A stretch of 64,000 bases of DNA from Ostreococcus lucimarinus (Eukaryota), in the NCBI GenBank assembly GCA_000092065.1, contig CP000581.1; one strand, given 5' to 3'. Below are positions 157-57,808 of the stretch, one piece after another. The stretch's first letter is position 1. Each line of letters begins with the position of its first letter. A program made the position numbers and the translations under genes. Below the pieces are notes generated by a model. That model was not told the DNA's origin and did not search any database. It saw only the letters and a program-made list of their open reading frames with translations.

Positions 157-338
157 GTGCGTCAACGTTCGACGCGTTTGGCGCGCGATTTGACTTGACT
201 CGATTCGACGACGCGCGGTTGACTTTGAGGCGACTTTTGAGCGTTACGAGGCGATGGAGCGATGGAGACGGAAGCGCGCGCGATGGAACGCGATGGATCG
301 ACACTGACGGGCGCGAACGCGGGATTTTGAACGCACAG
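157..338 (+). other. Putative spliceosomal intron in the 5' leader upstream of the mitochondrial-carrier gene
   Basis: GTGCGT at 157-162 preceded by G; ACTGAC at 303-308; CAG at 336-338, 30 nt after the branch motif. This is the same donor, branch and acceptor grammar as the 13 homology-verified introns. There is no ATG in 1-156, so the upstream exon is probably non-coding. Confidence 0.4.
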
Positions 339-732: not shown

Positions 733-1998
733 ATGGGGAAGAAGGAAGTGTCCGCGACGACGCTGCTCGGTAGACGTGGACGGTTGACGAGACCTCGGCG
801 ACATGGAGAGGAATATGTCGAGGTTTCTATGGCAACCGCAGCGCAATCAAGCGCATTAAAGGACATCGGACGATTTGTCCCAGTGAAGGATATCATCGCC
901 GGTGGTTTGGCTCGAGCGGCGAGCCAAAGTACGATTCATCCTTTGGACACCGTCAAGGTGCGCATGCAAGCCACGCTCAAGGGCGTCGCCGGCGCCGCGG
1001 CGCCGACGCCTCCGAGCGTTGGTAAGTACGGAGTCGGCCTGAGTGCGGTCTCCAACGGCGCGGTCAGCCTCGGGAAGAGGTCGTTGGCGTCAGCGGCCAA
1101 GGCTGGGGCTACCAAGTTTACTTCTGAAGTAGGCATGATGTACAAGGGATGTTTCGGCGCCGCTACGGGTGCGGGCATCGCCATCGGCGCATACTTTGCA
1201 TTTTACGGCACGGCGAAGAAGCTGCTCCAAGAGAAATCCGACATGCCAGTGTCGCAGATTGCGTTTGTGGCGGGTGGTATCGGTGCCCTTGGATCTTCCA
1301 TCGTCAAGGTACCCGCCGCTGTGTGCATTCGCTCGGTACAAGCCGGTGTGTACCCGAACGTCATCGCCGCCGGCCGCAGAATCACCGCGGCCGCCGGTCC
1401 CCGGGGTTTGTTCACCGGTTACATTCCAACGCTCCTTGAAGACGTGCCCGACATGGCCGTCAAGTTTGCAGCGTATGAGACTCTTCGAACGATGCATCGC
1501 TCGTTCATGAAGAAGAGCAAGGATGAAAGTAGCACGGGTGCGGACATCGTGATGGGTCTCATCGCGGGTTCCGTCGCCGCTGCCGCGACTACTCCTTTGG
1601 ATGTGGTGAAAACCCGGATGATGTGCAATGCCTCATCTCGACCCAGCTTCGGTGGCGCCATCATGGGCGTTTGGAAGGACTCGCCTCCGGGCGTCGGTCG
1701 CGTCCGAACGTTCTTCACCGGCGTTCGCCCGCGAGCAGTCTCCAACGGTATTAACTCCGCCATCTTCTTCTGCTTCTACGAAGCTCTCCGCTCCGGTTTG
1801 GTCAAGGCCGAAACCGAACGCGAACAACAGCGTCTGCAGGAGATCAACGCGTCGAATGCGGCGATGAAGAATTCCCGCCGCGCTTACAGCGGCGTTTCTG
1901 TTGACGCCGTTCATTACTCCACGCCGTCTCATGTGGGACGCGTTACGGAGGCGAGCATGACGCTCGCGCTCGCCAAGAAAAATAGAAAGAATGCCTAA
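733..1998 (+). CDS. Mitochondrial carrier family protein (solute carrier, three repeats)
   Basis: The ORF 664 start is a TTG. The first true ATG is at 733 in an aaccATGG context. Px[DE]xx[KR]xR-type signatures are present (PLDTVKVRMQ, PLDVVKTRMM), with glycine-rich transmembrane helices and a three-fold repeat layout. Confidence 0.8.
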   Translation: MGKKEVSATTLLGRRGRLTRPRRHGEEYVEVSMATAAQSSALKDIGRFVPVKDIIAGGLARAASQSTIHPLDTVKVRMQATLKGVAGAAAPTPPSVGKYGVGLSAVSNGAVSLGKRSLASAAKAGATKFTSEVGMMYKGCFGAATGAGIAIGAYFAFYGTAKKLLQEKSDMPVSQIAFVAGGIGALGSSIVKVPAAVCIRSVQAGVYPNVIAAGRRITAAAGPRGLFTGYIPTLLEDVPDMAVKFAAYETLRTMHRSFMKKSKDESSTGADIVMGLIAGSVAAAATTPLDVVKTRMMCNASSRPSFGGAIMGVWKDSPPGVGRVRTFFTGVRPRAVSNGINSAIFFCFYEALRSGLVKAETEREQQRLQEINASNAAMKNSRRAYSGVSVDAVHYSTPSHVGRVTEASMTLALAKKNRKNA

Positions 1999-2037
1999 GT
2001 ACGGTTGGCATGCTTTCTCGACCAGTTTTGTCTTGTG

Positions 2038-2043
2038 AATAAA
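2038..2043 (+). promoter_or_regulatory. AATAAA-like poly(A) signal about 40 nt after the carrier stop codon
   Basis: gtgaataaaaattg lies in the AT-richer 3' flank of the 733-1998 CDS. Confidence 0.3.
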
Positions 2044-2206
2044 AATTGAAGAGCTCTTCATGAAATGTTTTTCGTTTGATCCTTCTGCTCGACGCGCGGC
2101 GAGCCACTCGTTGTTATAAAGTTCTCGTTTCGATAATTGACAAACTAAGATGGACTACTATCGGGCGCGTCACTCATGGGATATGAACGCGACGTTCATT
2201 GCGTTT

Positions 2207-2923
2207 TCACTTGATCGGCGCATCTTGCGTCGAGTTGGCGAGCGACAAAGCCTCGGCGTGCTGGCGCGCCATGGAGGCTCGCGTGGCGTCGACGTAGTTT
2301 AAGATTTTCAATCTTGGGCCAGGAGGAATCCGCACTTCTTGCAACGCGCTGTCGTTCAGCAACAACAGCGTGTCATCCGTCAACAGCCCTTTCCGAAAGT
2401 TCTTTTCATACTTTTCCAACCCGAGCGTCGCGAGCATGTTATTCGCGTGCGCGTAGTAGTGATCCTGCGCCGCGTCCTTCCCGCTAAACATTTGTCCAAC
2501 CTTCATGAACGCCCCATTCAACAGCGCAAATAACGCACCGGTGCGCACCGCATCCGTCGCCACGCCAGCCGCGTCCTTCGGCGCTTCCCCGCCCATCGCC
2601 CCCGTGGACGACCCCGTCGCCGCGCCGACGAGGCTCAACGCGCTCCCCGCGCCGAACATCGCCATCATGGAGCCTTGAATATCCTCCACGCCGCCGCGGT
2701 ACTTTTTAATCGCCAGCGTCAATCCACCCTGCACCGCGGAGAACACCGCCAAGTTCAACGCGAGCACCTTGGGCGGTCCACTAAACGATCCTTGCGCCGC
2801 CATCGGGGGTTTATTCGGCATCGTCGCCGCCTGCGCCTCGAGCGACTTGTTCATCATCCCCAAGCCGTAGCCCAGCACCGAGCCTTGCAGCGCACCGCCC
2901 GCGGCCGTGATCCCGACCTCGAC
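2207..2923 (-). CDS. HP30-like PRAT (Tim17/Tim22/OEP16 family) protein with C-terminal SAM domain, exon 2
   Basis: Gly-rich four-helix Tim17-like core (GYGLGMM...GAGSALSLVGAATG) followed by a SAM domain (LATLGLEKYEKNFRKGLLTDDTLLLLNDSALQEV). The ORF-track start MRTRAQ at 2941 is intronic: ACTGAC at 2960-2955 and gcgcgcag acceptor at 2926-2924 on the minus strand. The exon begins VEVGITAAGG. Confidence 0.75.
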   Translation of the reverse strand, partial: VEVGITAAGGALQGSVLGYGLGMMNKSLEAQAATMPNKPPMAAQGSFSGPPKVLALNLAVFSAVQGGLTLAIKKYRGGVEDIQGSMMAMFGAGSALSLVGAATGSSTGAMGGEAPKDAAGVATDAVRTGALFALLNGAFMKVGQMFSGKDAAQDHYYAHANNMLATLGLEKYEKNFRKGLLTDDTLLLLNDSALQEVRIPPGPRLKILNYVDATRASMARQHAEALSLANSTQDAPIK

Positions 2924-3090
2924 CTGCGCGCGAGTTCGCATCGTCGCATCTTTCGTCAGTTTACGCCCGCATCGCGTCGCGTCGTCGCCTCATCGCGTCA
3001 TCGCGCGTCGCTTTCTCGACGGCGGCGATCCAATCATCGTTCGACAATCATCATCGCGCGCCGTCGACGCGCGCGTCGCGTCGCGCGCAC

Positions 3091-3165
3091 CGGGTCGGAC
3101 TGCGCCTTGAGCCACGCGTCGAAGCTCTCTTTCTTCGCCGCGAGCGTCTTGCCGAGGTCGCTCAT
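3091..3165 (-). CDS. HP30-like PRAT/SAM protein, exon 1 (MSDLGKTLAAKKESFDAWLKAQSDP)
   Basis: ATG at 3165-3163, 25 codons, ending CCG|GTGCGC (donor at 3090). FDAWLKAQSDP-VEVGITAA resembles the Arabidopsis HP30 N-terminus as recalled from memory (FKTWLSKQSIPVEAAVV), which needs an alignment to confirm. The intron 2924-3090 is 167 bp. This exon is absent from the ORF track. Confidence 0.6.
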
Positions 3166-3313
3166 CGCGCGCGTCGTCGGACCCGCGCGCGCGCGAGTGT
3201 GCGGCGATCGTCCCGAGCCGCCGGCGCCGTCCAGAGGGCCGCGCCGCGACGCGGCGGTTTCGTCGTTAATGTTACACCCCGCGCGCGAGGAAACGCGGCG
3301 CGGGCGCGAAAAG

Positions 3314-3835
3314 CTACTCGCGCGTCGAAATGGCTTTTTTACGTCGCTTCTTCGCGCGGCGACCGTCGTCGTCGTCGCGCGTCGCGCCCCGGACGCGCGG
3401 CGCGGCGTCCGCCTCGGCTTCGGCTTTGGCTTCGGCGCGCGCCGCGCGCTCGCGTTTCAATCGTTTACGCTCGGCTTTGCTCATGTGCCGCTTCTCGGGC
3501 GCGAGCGCGTCGGTCGGGTGCGCTCGAGCGCGCGACGCGCGTTCGACCGCTTTTTGCGCGACGAGCGCGGCGCGACCGCTCGAGGACGCGTCGGCGTTCG
3601 CCGTCGCGCGCGGCGTCGACTCGGGCGCGCGCGAGAGCGCGCGCGCGTCGGGCCGCTTCGTCGCCCCGAGCAGGGATTCCGCGGTCATCGTCGCGCGGAG
3701 ATGTTCGAGGAGTTCTTTCTCTCGCGCGTCGACCGCTCTGGGCGCGCGCAGGCGCTCGGCCTCGGCTTCCTGACGCTCGAGCGCGGCGCGGTTGGCGGCC
3801 GCGACGGCGATTCCGGAATACTTGGCCGTGCTCAT
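3314..3835 (-). CDS. Hypothetical small basic, Lys/Arg/Ala/Glu-rich protein
   Basis: True ATG at 3835. 173-aa ORF with KAERKRLKRERAARAEAKAEAEA-type charged low complexity and no recognisable domain. It could be spurious in this GC-rich context. Confidence 0.25.
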   Translation of the reverse strand: MSTAKYSGIAVAAANRAALERQEAEAERLRAPRAVDAREKELLEHLRATMTAESLLGATKRPDARALSRAPESTPRATANADASSSGRAALVAQKAVERASRARAHPTDALAPEKRHMSKAERKRLKRERAARAEAKAEAEADAAPRVRGATRDDDDGRRAKKRRKKAISTRE

Positions 3836-4022
3836 GGCGCGCGCGCGACGACGCGCGCGCTTGGTGGACGCGCCTGGTGGACCGGACGCGCGCGCGGCGG
3901 AGTGGCGCGCGGCGGCGTGGAGTGCGCGAGTCGAGCGCGGCGCGAGGGCGAGTCGTCGTCGTCGCCGCTCGGCGATGGATTTACAAAGGCGCGCGATGCG
4001 CGCGACGGTGCGCTATGAGGGT

Positions 4023-8361: not shown

Positions 8362-8646
8362 ATGAAGTACGTCGTCGTCAGCGGTGGCGTCGTCAGCGGC
8401 CTGGGCAAGGGCGTCACCGCGTCCTCCATCGGCGTCCTGCTCAAGGCGTCCGGGCTGCGCGTCACGAGCGTGAAGATCGACCCGTACATCAACATCGACG
8501 CGGGGACGATGTCGCCGTTCGAACACGGCGAGACGTACGTGCTCGACGACGGCGGCGAGAGCGATCTCGATCTCGGGAACTACGAGCGGTTCGTGGACGT
8601 GTCGCTGACGAGAGATCACAACATCACGACCGGGAAGGTGTACCAG
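8362..8646 (+). CDS. CTPS: CTP synthase, exon 1
   Basis: [28 protein letters not shown]...NITTGKVYQ is the canonical CTP synthase N-terminus. 95 codons, then G|GTGCGC donor at 8647. Confidence 0.9.
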
Positions 8647-8803
8647 GTGCGCGAGACGACGGGCGAGGCGAGAGGGACGATTTGTTTTTTCGTCGTTGTT
8701 TGAAAATGAACAACAGCTCCGAGGCGCGAACGCGAACGCGAACGCGAACGAATGGTCGGCGCGAGACTGACGGTGCGGTGACGCGGGTTCGATGTGAACG
8801 CAG

Positions 8804-10282
8804 AGCGTGATATCGAAGGAGCGCGAGGGGAAGTATCTCGGGAAGACGGTGCAGGTGGTGCCGCACATCACGGATGAGATTCAAGACTGGATCGAGCGCG
8901 TGGCGCACGTGCCGGTGGACGGGACGGATAACGTGCCGGACGTGTGCGTGATCGAGCTGGGGGGGACCGTGGGTGATATTGAATCGATGCCGTTCATCGA
9001 GGCGCTTCGACAGTTTCAGTTTCGAGTGGGGACGGAGAACTTTTGCTTGATTCACGTGTCGCTCGTGCCCGTCGTCGGCGCCGTCGGAGAGCAAAAGACC
9101 AAGCCGACGCAGCACTCGATCCAGGCGTTGCGTTCGGCGGGGTTGTCGCCACACATGCTCGCGTGTCGCTCAAAGCACCCGCTCGAGCAAAGCGTCATGG
9201 ACAAACTCGCGCTGTTCTGCCACGTGAACCCGAAGTGTATCATCAACTTGTGCGACGTGAGTAATATTTGGCACGTGCCGCTGGTGATGCTCGAGCAGGA
9301 CGCGCTGAGGAATATCATGTCCCAACTGCAGCTTCCGTACGCTGATCCGGACATGCAGCAATGGGAGTACCGCGCGAAAAAGTGGGACGCCGTCACGACG
9401 CCCGTCACCATCGCACTCGTCGGAAAGTACACTGGTTTGGGCGACTCGTACTTGTCCGTCACCAAGGCTTTGCTGCACAGCTCCATTGCGTGCGATCGTA
9501 AACTCGACTTGTTGTGGGTCGAAGCGAGCGATTTGGAGGAGGAAACGAAGAGCGAGGATGTGTCCAAGTACGAAGCGGCTTGGGAGAGCGTCAAGAAGGC
9601 GCAAGGCATCTTGGTTCCGGGTGGTTTCGGCGGTCGCGGTACCGAAGGGAAAATGATCGCCGCCAAGTACGCGCGCGAGAACAAGGTTCCGTACCTCGGT
9701 ATCTGCCTCGGGATGCAGTGTATGGTGATTGAGTACGCGCGCAACGTTCTCGGTCTGTCGGACGCGCACTCAACGGAGATGGAACCGGAAACGAAGAACC
9801 CGGCCGTCATCTTTATGCCCGAAGGGAGCAAGACGCACATGGGCGGCACGATGCGTCTCGGCAGTCGAAGAACCATCTTCCAAACGCAGGATTGCATCTC
9901 CTCTCGCTTGTACGGATCGGTGCCGCACGTTGACGAGCGTCACCGTCATAGGTACGAAGTGAATCCGGAAATGGTGCCTCAGCTCGAGGCGGCTGGATGC
10001 AAGTTTGTCGGCAAGGACGACACGCAGTTGCGCATGGAGATTTGCGAAGTCGACGGCCATCCGTTCATGGTTGGCTGCCAGTATCACCCCGAGTACAAGT
10101 CTCGTCCTGGACGACCCTCTCCGCTTTTCATGGGGCTCATCCTCGCCGCGAGCTCTCAACTCGGTGAGTACAACTCGGACGAGGCGATCGCCGTTCGCAA
10201 GAGCGCAGCCTATAGCGAACACAACTCCGTGCTCACCAGTCCACTCAAGGTGCTCCGACAGAACGTCTCCCCATCCAAGTAG
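8804..10282 (+). CDS. CTPS: CTP synthase, exon 2 (synthetase and glutamine amidotransferase domains)
   Basis: The acceptor cag at 8801-8803 is followed by SVISKEREGKYLGKTVQVVPHITDEIQ, which continues the CTP synthase alignment in frame. A GATase domain (GICLGMQ, ...HPEY) follows. The 157-bp intron contains ACTGAC 32 nt before the acceptor. Confidence 0.9.
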   Translation, partial: SVISKEREGKYLGKTVQVVPHITDEIQDWIERVAHVPVDGTDNVPDVCVIELGGTVGDIESMPFIEALRQFQFRVGTENFCLIHVSLVPVVGAVGEQKTKPTQHSIQALRSAGLSPHMLACRSKHPLEQSVMDKLALFCHVNPKCIINLCDVSNIWHVPLVMLEQDALRNIMSQLQLPYADPDMQQWEYRAKKWDAVTTPVTIALVGKYTGLGDSYLSVTKALLHSSIACDRKLDLLWVEASDLEEETKSEDVSKYEAAWESVKKAQGILVPGGFGGRGTEGKMIAAKYARENKVPYLGICLGMQCMVIEYARNVLGLSDAHSTEMEPETKNPAVIFMPEGSKTHMGGTMRLGSRRTIFQTQDCISSRLYGSVPHVDERHRHRYEVNPEMVPQLEAAGCKFVGKDDTQLRMEICEVDGHPFMVGCQYHPEYKSRPGRPSPLFMGLILAASSQLGEYNSDEAIAVRKSAAYSEHNSVLTSPLKVLRQNVSPSK

Positions 10283-34223: not shown

Positions 34224-34782
<559 letters not shown>

Positions 34783-34823
34783 TGACGAACGAACGTTGGG
34801 TGCGATTTTCGCGCGAAAACTAG

Positions 34824-57508: not shown

Positions 57509-57627
57509 ATCGGCGCGAGTCGTCGAGTGCGGCGCCGCAGACGCGCGCGCGCGACGCCTCGATCGCGCCGCACGCCCCGCACGCGCGCGAGAATCGGTGA
57601 ACGGGACGAAGGAAGACATCGCGCGCC

Positions 57628-57681
57628 ATGGCGAACGCCACGGATCCGCTGGCGAAGACCGTGCGCGGGATGGACCCGCAG
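57628..57681 (+). CDS. PRP38: PRP38 pre-mRNA splicing factor, exon 1
   Basis: MANATDPLAKTVRGMDPQ matches the PRP38 N-terminus as recalled from memory (MANRTDPLAKNIHGTNPQ). Ends CAG|GTGCGT. Confidence 0.8.
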
Positions 57682-57808
57682 GTGCGTCGCGCGCGGCGGC
57701 GCGGATTCGCTCGAAACGACGCGCGAAACGCGCGAAACGCGCGTTCGCGAGGCGACCAGAGACGCGAGACTGACGATGCGATTCGCGCGCTCGTTTTCGT
57801 CGACGCAG

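What the first reader, a model, noticed from the sequence alone, without database searches (positions are those of the whole stretch)
2207..3165. Hidden 5' exon of the HP30-like PRAT/SAM gene found from the branch-point motif
The ORF track starts this gene at MRTRAQ (2941). On the minus strand, however, ACTGAC sits at 2960-2955 and gcgcgcag at 2926-2924, so MRTRAQ is actually the tail of an intron.

A GTGCGC donor at 3090 and an ATG at 3165 give a 25-codon exon 1, MSDLGKTLAAKKESFDAWLKAQSDP. Its joined sequence (FDAWLKAQSDP-VEVGITAA) resembles the N-terminus of Arabidopsis HP30 as recalled from memory (FKTWLSKQSIPVEAAVV), which needs an alignment to confirm.

The encoded protein combines a Tim17/Tim22-like channel core with a SAM domain. 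That architecture is otherwise known from plant chloroplast-envelope HP30/HP20. Its presence here is a useful marker that this is a green-lineage nuclear genome.
Basis: partly seen in the sequence, partly recalled or inferred. Interest (0 to 1): 0.6.

Follow-up and report, generated by a model that had tools for sequence, protein, structure and literature searches.

The report
Annotated 5' exon of Ostreococcus HP30/Tric1

Summary
On the minus strand there is an ATG at 3165, a 75-nt exon 1 (3165-3091), a GTGCGCG donor at 3090, an AACTGACG branch site (2961-2954), a CAG acceptor ending at 2924, and exon 2 from 2923 to the stop at 2207. The joined 263-aa product is identical to XP_001415886.1 of Ostreococcus lucimarinus CCE9901, so the exon is already annotated. 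Contigs from three SRA runs match the window at 99.9-100% and lack exactly these 167 nt. Transcript-derived orthologues carry the same junction. Four syntenic Ostreococcus loci conserve exon 1, the splice signals and the branch site, while the intron varies in sequence and length. The signals match the published O. lucimarinus consensus (GTGCGTG / GACTGACG). The protein is an orthologue of plant HP30/HP30-2 (= Tric1/Tric2). It has an N-terminal helix, a four-helix Tim17/Tim22-type core, and a SAM domain 61% identical to the solved Arabidopsis Tric1 SAM. Novelty: already known. Interest: low.

The parts
3091..3165 (-). Exon 1 coding sequence: 25 codons, MSDLGKTLAAKKESFDAWLKAQSDP. It encodes the N-terminal helix that carries the family-wide F-x-x-W-L-x-x-Q motif.
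   Evidence: Sequence read. It is identical to residues 1-25 of XP_001415886.1. W18 and Q22 are at least 90% conserved across 17 Viridiplantae homologues. Exon 1 is 71-72% identical to the O. mediterraneus-type loci L001/L002, against 54-56% for the intron (the contrast is weaker against L005, 68% against 64%), and codon-position differences are 9/3/11. AF2 models residues 2-21 as a helix.
2924..3090 (-). Spliceosomal intron, 167 nt, phase 0. It has a GTGCGCG 5' splice site (3090-3084), an AACTGACG branch site (2961-2954, branch A at 2956) and a CAG 3' splice site (2926-2924).
   Evidence: These 167 nt are exactly missing from contigs L010, L011 and L012, which are otherwise 99.9-100% identical to the window. 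Reading through gives a stop after 43 codons, and the length is not a multiple of 3. Donor, branch site and acceptor are conserved in L001-L003 and L005, while intron length varies (207/205/205/172 nt). The signals match the published O. lucimarinus consensus (PMC2483917).
2939..2941 (-). Spurious ATG inside the intron. It opens the 244-aa 'MRTRAQ...' ORF reported by ORF finders.
   Evidence: The ORF is listed. MRTRAQ is not conserved: relatives read MERPRAQ, VIRAQ..SLAQ, or start downstream at MAIVSAGG. The ORF-only version sits on 603 contigs called with prokaryote-style gene finders.
2207..2923 (-). Exon 2 coding sequence, residues 26-263 plus the stop codon at 2209-2207.
   Evidence: It is identical to residues 26-263 of XP_001415886.1.
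2483..2923 (-). Tim17/Tim22-type (PRAT) four-helix membrane core, residues about 26-172. The modelled helices are 24-58, 76-100, 107-127 and 143-172.
   Evidence: Pfam Tim17 matches residues 31-134 at E 0.005, which is 17.5 bits and below the 32.7-bit cut-off. The same family matches 15 of 17 aligned homologues, best E 1.3e-13. The family profile hits Tim22 (6lo8, 7cgp) at about 9e-4 and Tim17 (8e1m) at 1.7e-3. Foldseek on the AF2 model matches Tim17, Tim22 and NDUFA11 with target-normalised TM-scores of 0.56-0.65.
2288..2476 (-). C-terminal SAM domain, residues 175-237 as aligned to the solved Tric1/HP30-1 SAM structure.
   Evidence: Pfam SAM_1 scores E 3e-7. phmmer against PDB 8ucy (Arabidopsis Tric1/HP30-1 SAM) gives E 9e-19. 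Foldseek gives rmsd 0.5 A and 61% identity.
2111..2206 (-). 3' untranslated region, minimum extent.
   Evidence: Contigs L011 and L012 end at window 2111 and 2152, which is 96 and 55 nt past the stop codon. That these ends are the transcript's 3' end is an inference.

Best explanation
Window 3165-2207 (minus strand) is the two-exon nuclear gene for the Ostreococcus lucimarinus CCE9901 protein XP_001415886.1.

**Shown**
- A 75-nt first exon is joined to the main exon by removing a 167-nt canonical GT-AG intron.
- That intron carries this genome's strong splice signals: GTGCGYG at the donor, (G/A)ACTGACG at the branch site, and YAG about 30 nt further on.
- The in-frame ATG at 2941 lies inside the intron and is not the start codon.
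- The product is the green-algal orthologue of the plant HP30/HP30-2 (= Tric1/Tric2) subfamily of PRAT proteins. It has an N-terminal helix encoded by exon 1, four transmembrane helices of the Tim17/Tim22 fold, a short linker, and a SAM domain very close to the crystallised Arabidopsis Tric1 SAM.

**Inferred**
- As in Arabidopsis, the SAM domains probably oligomerise into a ring on one face of an organelle membrane. This would hold several Tim22-like membrane domains together as an import device.
- In Ostreococcus the cargo is more likely proteins without a presequence than tRNA. The sister species O. tauri reportedly needs no mitochondrial tRNA import, and one of the two tRNA-binding lysines of Tric1 is replaced. 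Location and cargo were not tested here.
For: **Gene model**
- The joined product equals P0120 / XP_001415886.1 exactly.
- Contigs from SRR28369094, SRR28369057 and SRR28369097 are 99.9-100% identical to the window on both sides and lack exactly positions 3090-2924.
- All six contigs that carry the contiguous 263-aa ORF are under 10 kb. The unspliced ORF sits on contigs of up to 1.13 Mb.
- Control: the spliced CTP synthase of the same window is found only on mRNA-sized contigs (under 2 kb) from the same SRR2836xxxx series and from Tara ERR17xxxxx runs.
- Orthologous sequences span the junction. The MERC sequence P0002 reads ...FDAWLKAQSDA|VQVIV.... The O. mediterraneus protein P0136 equals exon 1 of L002 followed by the start of its exon 2 (seen by inspection).

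**Comparison with related loci**
- Exon 1, donor, ACTGACG and acceptor are conserved in L001-L003 and L005. The intron diverges in sequence and length and contains stop codons.
- The same phase-0 position is occupied by an intron in two other Mamiellales loci, L006 and L007.
- The splice signals match the published consensus (PMC2483917).

**Protein identity**
- Homologues include proteins named 'HP30-2-like'.
- BLASTP against Eutrema HP30 gives E 1e-37, collinear from residue 15 to 237.
- The SAM domain matches PDB 8ucy at E 9e-19 and 0.5 A rmsd.
- The Tim17-family core is supported.

**Function**
- The Tric1 oligomerisation residues G218, G241 and R243 are conserved as G204, G227 and R229, and D235 becomes E221. 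The tRNA-binding K210 is kept as K196, while K205 becomes T191 (PMC11063897).
Against: - I could not see the SRA metadata. That control came from the same accession series, not from the identical runs.
- For this protein alone the Tim17 Pfam score is below the curated cut-off. The AF2 model has only moderate confidence (mean pLDDT 68), and the Foldseek E-values for the membrane part are weak (0.01-0.06).
- The strict PRAT motif is absent, though it is also absent from the land-plant HP30 sequences examined.
- The functional part is extrapolated from Arabidopsis, where location and cargo are themselves disputed. The tRNA argument rests on O. tauri, not O. lucimarinus.
Confidence: 0.95

Rival explanations
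1. There is no splicing. The transcript starts inside or downstream of the proposed intron, and translation begins at ATG 2941, giving the 244-aa 'MRTRAQ...' protein that ORF finders report.
For: The ORF from 2941 to 2207 is open and starts with ATG. This 244-aa version is by far the most frequent form in metagenome protein catalogues, on 603 contigs.
Against: - Those catalogue entries come from intron-blind gene callers.
- MRTRAQ is not conserved among close relatives. The exon 1 peptide is conserved from Ostreococcus to angiosperms.
- Intron-less contigs and transcript-derived orthologues show the splice.
- The region between 3090 and 2924 varies in length and sequence apart from the splice signals.
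Confidence: 0.02
2. The intron-less contigs are DNA, not RNA. Some natural Ostreococcus strains would have lost this intron, so those contigs say nothing about splicing in the strain of the window.
For: A related Mamiellales genomic contig (L004) does encode the N-terminus with no intron, so intron loss at this site has happened in the group. SRA metadata were not available. L010-L012 span more than one gene.
Against: - The flanks are 99.9-100% identical to the window and the deletion is exact, GT to AG.
- Every contig with the contiguous ORF is under 10 kb, and two end 55-96 nt after the stop codon.
- A second gene's intron is likewise missing on mRNA-sized contigs from the same run series.
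- Even if this rival were true, the annotation, the orthologous transcripts and the comparative data still support the exon.
Confidence: 0.05
3. Functional rival: the protein acts as in the Murcha/Tric model. It would be a mitochondrial outer-membrane component whose SAM ring binds the T-arm of cytosolic tRNAs and imports them into mitochondria.
For: The SAM domain is 61% identical to Tric1 SAM. It keeps K210 (as K196) and the oligomerisation residues G218, G241 and R243. Tric1/2 SAM is required for tRNA import in Arabidopsis (PMC11063897).
Against: O. tauri mitochondria apparently encode enough tRNAs and need no import (PMC3531208). Tric1 K205 is a threonine here, and K234 is a glutamine. Another group assigns the same Arabidopsis proteins to import of presequence-less proteins (PMC8151980).
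Confidence: 0.35

Closest known systems
XP_001415886.1 / ABO94178.1 / UniRef100_A4RRE6, 'predicted protein' / 'SAM domain-containing protein', Ostreococcus lucimarinus CCE9901
   Same: It lies on a 1,152,508-bp record that also carries the window's CTP synthase.
   Different: Nothing differs at the protein level. The public name gives no hint of the HP30/Tric1 relationship.
Arabidopsis HP30 (At3g49560, = Tric1) and HP30-2 (At5g24650, = Tric2), the HP30 subfamily of PRAT proteins
   Same: The architecture and order are the same: an N-terminal helix with F-x-x-W-L-x-x-Q-S-x-P-V-E, a four-helix Tim17/22-type core, and a C-terminal SAM. Identity to the Eutrema orthologue is 37% overall, and 61% within the SAM domain to the Arabidopsis crystal structure.
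   Different: - Tric1 K205, K234 and D235 are T, Q and E here.
- The Ostreococcus protein has no cysteine, whereas most streptophyte homologues keep one in the second membrane helix.
- The loop between helices 3 and 4 is longer.
- Gene structure differs. Eutrema has no intron at this position.
- Location and cargo are unknown in algae.
Arabidopsis HP20/HP22 (At4g26670/At5g55510) and OEP16, other plastid PRAT proteins
   Same: They share the Tim17-family four-helix membrane domain.
   Different: They have no SAM domain.
Mitochondrial Tim22 (PDB 6lo8_A, 7cgp_A) and Tim17 (8e1m_A)
   Same: They are the best non-HP30 matches of the membrane part, both by profile (E about 1e-3) and by fold (target-normalised TM-score 0.56-0.65). 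HP30 clusters with Tim22 in a published Tim17-family survey (PMC5072337).
   Different: They have no SAM domain, sequence identity is only 16-19%, and the Tim22 cysteines are absent here.
Canonical (non-chromosome-2) spliceosomal introns of O. lucimarinus (Irimia & Roy 2008, PMC2483917)
   Same: The 5'ss GTGCGCG compares with the consensus GTGCGTG, and the branch AACTGACG with GACTGACG. The distance from branch site to 3'ss is constrained (32 nt here; 25-38 nt at other consensus sites in the window).
   Different: There is one mismatch in each motif and nothing unusual.

Membership tests
HP30/Tric1 subfamily of PRAT proteins | C-terminal SAM domain homologous to Tric1/HP30-1 SAM | tested here: met
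   Pfam SAM_1 scores E 3e-7, above the cut-off. phmmer against PDB 8ucy gives E 9e-19. The family profile gives 1e-31. Foldseek gives rmsd 0.5 A, 61% identity and a target-normalised TM-score of 0.89.
HP30/Tric1 subfamily of PRAT proteins | N-terminal four-helix Tim17/Tim22/Tim23-type membrane domain | tested here: met
   For this protein alone the Pfam Tim17 score is sub-threshold (17.5 bits against 32.7). However, 15 of 17 aligned family members match Tim17, best E 1.3e-13. The family profile hits Tim22 at 9e-4 and Tim17 at 1.7e-3. The AF2 model has four long helices, and Foldseek matches only Tim17-family chains for that part. Support is at family level and moderate in strength.
HP30/Tric1 subfamily of PRAT proteins | Collinear full-length similarity to land-plant HP30, including the N-terminal segment before the first membrane helix | tested here: met
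   BLASTP against Eutrema HP30 gives E 1e-37 over residues 15-237 and crosses the exon junction without a gap. W18 and Q22 are at least 90% conserved in 17 sequences. The N-terminal 47 residues alone against an 'HP30-2-like' protein give E 4e-6.
HP30/Tric1 subfamily of PRAT proteins | tRNA-binding lysines of Tric1 SAM (K205, K210) | tested here: inconclusive
   K210 is conserved as K196. K205 is T191 here (residues defined in PMC11063897).
HP30/Tric1 subfamily of PRAT proteins | SAM oligomerisation residues (D235, G241, plus G218 and R243) | tested here: met
   G204, G227 and R229 are conserved. D235 is replaced conservatively by E221, and K234 is Q220.
HP30/Tric1 subfamily of PRAT proteins | Location in the plastid envelope and/or mitochondrial membranes, and a role in import | not testable with these tools
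   This needs tagging, fractionation and import assays. It is disputed even for Arabidopsis.
PRAT family in the strict sense (Rassow motif) | Motif [G/A]x2[F/Y]x10Rx3Dx6[G/A/S]Gx3G (quoted from my own knowledge of the PRAT literature) | tested here: not met
   A regular-expression search fails in this protein and in all 16 other HP30-type sequences, land plants included. A version with relaxed spacing is present: ALNL...RGGVED...FGAG. This does not bear on HP30-subfamily membership, because the plant members fail it too.
HP20 subfamily | PRAT core without a SAM domain | tested here: not met
   This protein has a SAM domain, so it is not an HP20-type protein.
Canonical O. lucimarinus spliceosomal intron (outside chromosome 2) | GT-AG ends with a GTGCGTG-type donor and a GACTGACG-type branch site a constrained distance from the 3' splice site | tested here: met
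   The donor GTGCGCG matches 6 of 7 positions, and the branch AACTGACG matches 7 of 8. The branch A lies 32 nt from the 3'ss (consensus from PMC2483917).
Canonical O. lucimarinus spliceosomal intron (outside chromosome 2) | Removed from the mature transcript | tested here: met
   There is a precise 167-nt gap in L010-L012, which are 99.9-100% identical elsewhere. The CTP synthase control supports an RNA origin. Caveat: the library type was not seen in metadata.

The most novel reading that the evidence does not exclude
Ostreococcus keeps a well-conserved single-exon-plus-leader HP30/Tric1 orthologue with an intact SAM ring interface. Yet its mitochondria (in O. tauri) reportedly need no tRNA import, and one tRNA-binding lysine is replaced. 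The least ordinary reading is therefore this: the PRAT-SAM fusion arose before chlorophytes and streptophytes split, for a job other than mitochondrial tRNA import, most likely import of presequence-less proteins. tRNA import by Tric1/2 would then be a later streptophyte addition. A minimal, transformable alga would be a clean system to settle the Arabidopsis dispute.
Probability: 0.4. Interest if true: 0.35.

Novelty: already known. Interest (0 to 1): 0.1.

Why it matters
**Genome annotation.** It matters little, because the exon is already in the public O. lucimarinus gene model.

**Practical value.**
In this window it recovered two annotated introns exactly.
- Public metagenome protein catalogues are full of truncated or intron-read-through versions of this gene. 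The 244-aa form sits on 603 contigs, and one relative is even filed under bacterial MAGs.

**Biology.** The only open question it touches is what HP30/Tric1-type proteins really do. An orthologue in an alga that apparently needs no mitochondrial tRNA import is a useful comparison point for that dispute.

Tried and rejected
1. **Unspliced start at ATG 2941.** Rejected on conservation and transcript evidence.
2. **P0006 as independent support for an N-terminal extension.** Rejected. Its 'MVNDARRG...SLAQ' N-terminus is the intron of L005 read through by a prokaryotic gene caller.
3. **Direct look-up of my spliced CTP synthase sequence.** I reached it instead through the listing of cluster members.
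4. **Murcha et al. 2016 (PMC5129730).** The paper is not held, so their phylogenetic sampling of algae could not be checked.
5. **Strict PRAT motif.** It fails in the whole HP30 subfamily, so it is uninformative.
6. **Hydrophobic-moment scan of the exon 1 peptide.** It gave no clear amphipathic signal (0.35-0.9 on the Kyte-Doolittle scale), and I drew no conclusion from it.
7. **Automated pairing of donors and acceptors by open-frame length.** This is unreliable in such GC-rich DNA, where frames stay open by chance. I trust only candidates that have consensus signals and a recognisable protein junction.
8. **Intron age.** The position is not shared with Eutrema or Cymbomonas, so it is not an ancient Viridiplantae intron.
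9. **Searches of genome contigs and viral collections.** Not used. Those collections cover prokaryotes and viruses, and this is a eukaryotic nuclear gene.
Full report
**1. The observation.**
I read the minus strand of window 1500-3900.
- ATG at 3165.
- A 75-nt open stretch encoding MSDLGKTLAAKKESFDAWLKAQSDP, ending at 3091.
- GTGCGC at 3090-3085.
- ACTGAC at 2960-2955.
- CAG at 2926-2924, followed in frame by GTC GAG GTC GGG... (VEVG...).

The interval 3090-2924 is 167 nt. It is not a multiple of three, and reading through gives a stop after 43 codons. The mechanical ORF list does start the long ORF at ATG 2941 with MRTRAQ. ATG 3165 is the only ATG/GTG/TTG in its frame back to a stop near 3459.

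**2. Is it more than chance?**
ACTGAC itself is not enriched in the window (22 sites on both strands, about 20 expected). However, 12 of the 22 sit in an intron-like setting, with GTGCG 30-300 nt upstream and YAG 22-43 nt downstream. Simulated sequences with the same dinucleotide frequencies (first-order Markov) give 2.8 +/- 1.7, maximum 8 of 100.

Several of these sites interrupt unmistakable proteins:
- a CTP synthase: ...[27 protein letters not shown]...
- a CDC48/p97
- a dynamin-like GTPase: ...GKSSVLEAL|VGRDFLPRG...

Splicing the CTP synthase by these signals gives a 587-aa protein identical to XP_001415558.1 of Ostreococcus lucimarinus CCE9901.

The literature explains why this works. 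In O. lucimarinus, 87% of EST-confirmed introns outside chromosome 2 contain ACTGAC, and 66.5% contain GACTGACG. Their 5' splice sites follow the unusual consensus GTGCGTG (Irimia & Roy 2008, PMC2483917). The intron here has GTGCGCG and AACTGACG, one mismatch in each.

**3. The exon is real, and already annotated.**
A search with the joined 263-aa sequence returned a 90%-identity cluster. One member is P0120 = XP_001415886.1 / ABO94178.1 / UniRef A4RRE6, 'predicted protein [Ostreococcus lucimarinus CCE9901]', 263 aa. Its sequence is identical to the joined product. So the window comes from O. lucimarinus CCE9901, on a 1,152,508-bp record, and the public gene model already contains exon 1. The exon is 'hidden' only from intron-blind ORF calling. 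The 244-aa MRTRAQ form occurs on 603 contigs in metagenome catalogues.

**4. Transcript-level evidence.**
Looking up where P0120 is encoded as one uninterrupted ORF returned contigs from three SRA runs: SRR28369094, SRR28369057 and SRR28369097. BLASTN shows each is 99.9-100% identical to the window on both sides (4665-3089 and 2924-2111, or 3650-3089 and 2924-707). Each lacks exactly the 167 nt.

I could not read the SRA metadata, but three things point to RNA:
- All six contigs with the contiguous ORF are under 10 kb, whereas the intron-containing form sits on contigs above 1 Mb.
- Two contigs end 55 and 96 nt after the stop codon.
- As a control, the spliced CTP synthase is found only on twelve mRNA-sized contigs (under 2 kb). 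These come from the same SRR2836xxxx series and from Tara ERR17xxxxx runs.

Independent orthologous sequences span the same junction:
- P0002, from the MERC catalogue (accession ERR1712159_915953), reads ...KKDRFDAWLKAQSDA|VQVIVTSAGG.
- P0136, the O. mediterraneus UniRef entry A0A7S0KM37, matches exon 1 of locus L002 followed by the start of its exon 2, by inspection. From my own knowledge, both catalogues are transcriptome-derived.

**5. Comparative evidence.**
Syntenic loci from other Ostreococcus lineages (L001-L003, L005) share the gene order: a TPR/DnaJ gene, a gene of about 170 aa, this gene, then a convergent mitochondrial carrier gene.
- All have a short ATG-initiated exon ending CCG|GTGCGT, an invariant ACTGACG, and YAG|GTnGAG.
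- Exon 1 is 75, 75, 75 and 63 nt in these loci. Their introns are 207, 205, 205 and 172 nt, against 167 nt in the window.
- Between the window and L001, exon 1 is 72% identical and the intron 54%. Second codon positions change least (9/3/11). The contrast is weaker against L005 (exon 1 68%, intron 64%). All introns carry stop codons when read through.

Intron position beyond Ostreococcus:
- Two further Mamiellales loci have an intron at exactly the same phase-0 boundary (...KPPA|VEIG, ...QPLP|IEVG). These are L006 (GC 48%, Bathycoccus-like, with GTGAGA...TACTAAC...CAG) and L007 (GC 55%).
- Both also have a second, phase-1 intron after AMQ(G). Cymbomonas appears to share an intron there, but its junction was placed only by tblastn. 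Ostreococcus lacks it.
- Another genomic contig, L004, has no intron here.
- Eutrema's first exon runs to about residue 100.

The intron is therefore Mamiellales-wide rather than ancient, with lineage-specific losses.

**6. What the protein is.**
- **Domains.** Pfam finds SAM_1 (E 3e-7) and a sub-threshold Tim17 match.
- **Homologues.** All named homologues are Viridiplantae. They include angiosperm proteins named 'chloroplastic import inner membrane translocase subunit HP30-2-like'. One MMETSP hit is Dolichomastix.
- **N-terminus.** A 17-sequence alignment is collinear end to end. W18 and Q22 of exon 1 are at least 90% conserved. BLASTP against the Eutrema HP30 orthologue gives E 1e-37. It starts at F15 (FDAWLKAQSDPVEVGI against FKTWLSKQSLPVEAAV), so it crosses the junction without a gap.
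- **SAM domain.** It matches the crystal structure of Arabidopsis Tric1/HP30-1 SAM (8ucy) at E 9e-19 by sequence, and at 0.5 A rmsd with 61% identity by fold.
- **Membrane core.** The family profile reaches Tim22 (about 9e-4) and Tim17 (1.7e-3). Pfam Tim17 matches 15 of the 17 members.
- **Model.** An AF2 model of moderate confidence (pLDDT 68) shows an exon 1 helix (residues 2-21), four long helices and the SAM domain. Its membrane part matches only Tim17-family chains: Tim17, Tim22 and NDUFA11.
- **PRAT motif.** The strict motif is absent, but it is absent from every HP30-type sequence tested, including land plants.

**7. How it probably works, and the corrections.**
HP30 (At3g49560) and HP30-2 (At5g24650) are the same proteins as Tric1 and Tric2.
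- One group describes them as mitochondrial outer-membrane, dual-targeted components. In this view the SAM domain oligomerises, possibly into a pentameric or hexameric ring, and binds the tRNA T-arm through K205 and K210 (PMC11063897).
[quoted passage not shown] They also place HP30-2 with TIM22 in the mitochondrial inner membrane (PMC8151980).

PMC11063897 states that Tric1/2 differ from the other PRATs in having the SAM domain.

In the Ostreococcus protein:
- The oligomerisation residues are kept: G204, G227 and R229, with D235 becoming E221.
- K210 is kept as K196.
- K205 is T191.

PlantRNA reports that O. tauri apparently needs no mitochondrial tRNA import (PMC3531208).

My inference is that the protein is an organelle-membrane import component built from a Tim22-like domain and an oligomerising SAM ring. 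In this alga a protein cargo is somewhat more likely than tRNA. None of this was tested here.

**8. Verdict.**
The feature is an ordinary, already annotated two-exon gene. Novelty: already known. Interest: low (0.1). The only mildly interesting angle is that a minimal alga retains a Tric1/HP30 orthologue without an evident need for tRNA import.

Noticed in passing
window 8362-10282 (+), intron 8647-8803: This is a CTP synthase gene with a 157-nt intron carrying the same signals (GTGCGCG ... GACTGACG ... CAG). The spliced 587-aa model is identical to XP_001415558.1 of O. lucimarinus. Spliced mRNA-sized contigs exist in 12 SRA runs.
   Followed up: yes
window 34324-34435 and 34663-34823 (+); 43719-43592 (-): These are consensus-signal introns in a CDC48/p97-like gene (two introns) and a dynamin-like GTPase gene (...GKSSVLEAL|VGRDFLPRG...). 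I recognised the junctions by eye from the translations and did not check them against annotation.
   Followed up: partly
window 38176-37966 (-), 62769-62666 (-), 157-338 (+), 57527-57808 (+): Further ACTGAC sites have GTGCG-type donors and a YAG 25-36 nt downstream, so they are candidate introns. The flanking reading frames were judged only by open-frame length, which is unreliable in this GC-rich DNA.
   Followed up: no
L006 1358-2346 (ENA contig k119_876749); cluster member P0145: A Bathycoccus-like orthologue (GC 48%, two spliceosomal introns, mitochondrial carrier gene next door) is deposited in NCBI as 'hypothetical protein CBD41_05305 [bacterium TMED181]' and '[Planctomycetota bacterium]' (MAJ28814.1, OUW44670.1). 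Picoeukaryote DNA has evidently been binned into bacterial MAGs, and the 281-aa product includes translated intron.
   Followed up: partly
L006 1540-1680, L007 1560-1672, L009 614-1030; L004 1715-1800: There is intron turnover in this gene. A second, phase-1 intron after AMQ(G) is present in two Mamiellales loci, and Cymbomonas has an intron at about the same place (placed only by tblastn). Ostreococcus has none there. The L004 lineage lacks the first intron as well.
   Followed up: partly
window 3314-3835 (-): A 173-aa Ala/Arg/Lys-rich ORF with no Pfam hit lies between the TPR/DnaJ gene and the HP30-like gene. A gene of 170-172 aa is called at the same syntenic place in L001, L003 and L005. 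Only 148 nt separate its stop codon from ATG 3165.
   Followed up: no
L011/L012 = window 4665-2111 (-); L010 = window 3650-707: The intron-less contigs run uninterrupted across two or three neighbouring genes, including the convergent mitochondrial carrier gene. Either UTRs overlap and transcription reads through in this compact genome, or the assembler merged adjacent transcripts.
   Followed up: no
window 2207-3165 (-), protein residues 1-263: The O. lucimarinus protein contains no cysteine at all. Most streptophyte homologues keep one in the second membrane helix (G-I-x-C-V-M-K-R), which a published survey relates to the conserved Tim22 cysteines (PMC5072337).
   Followed up: partly
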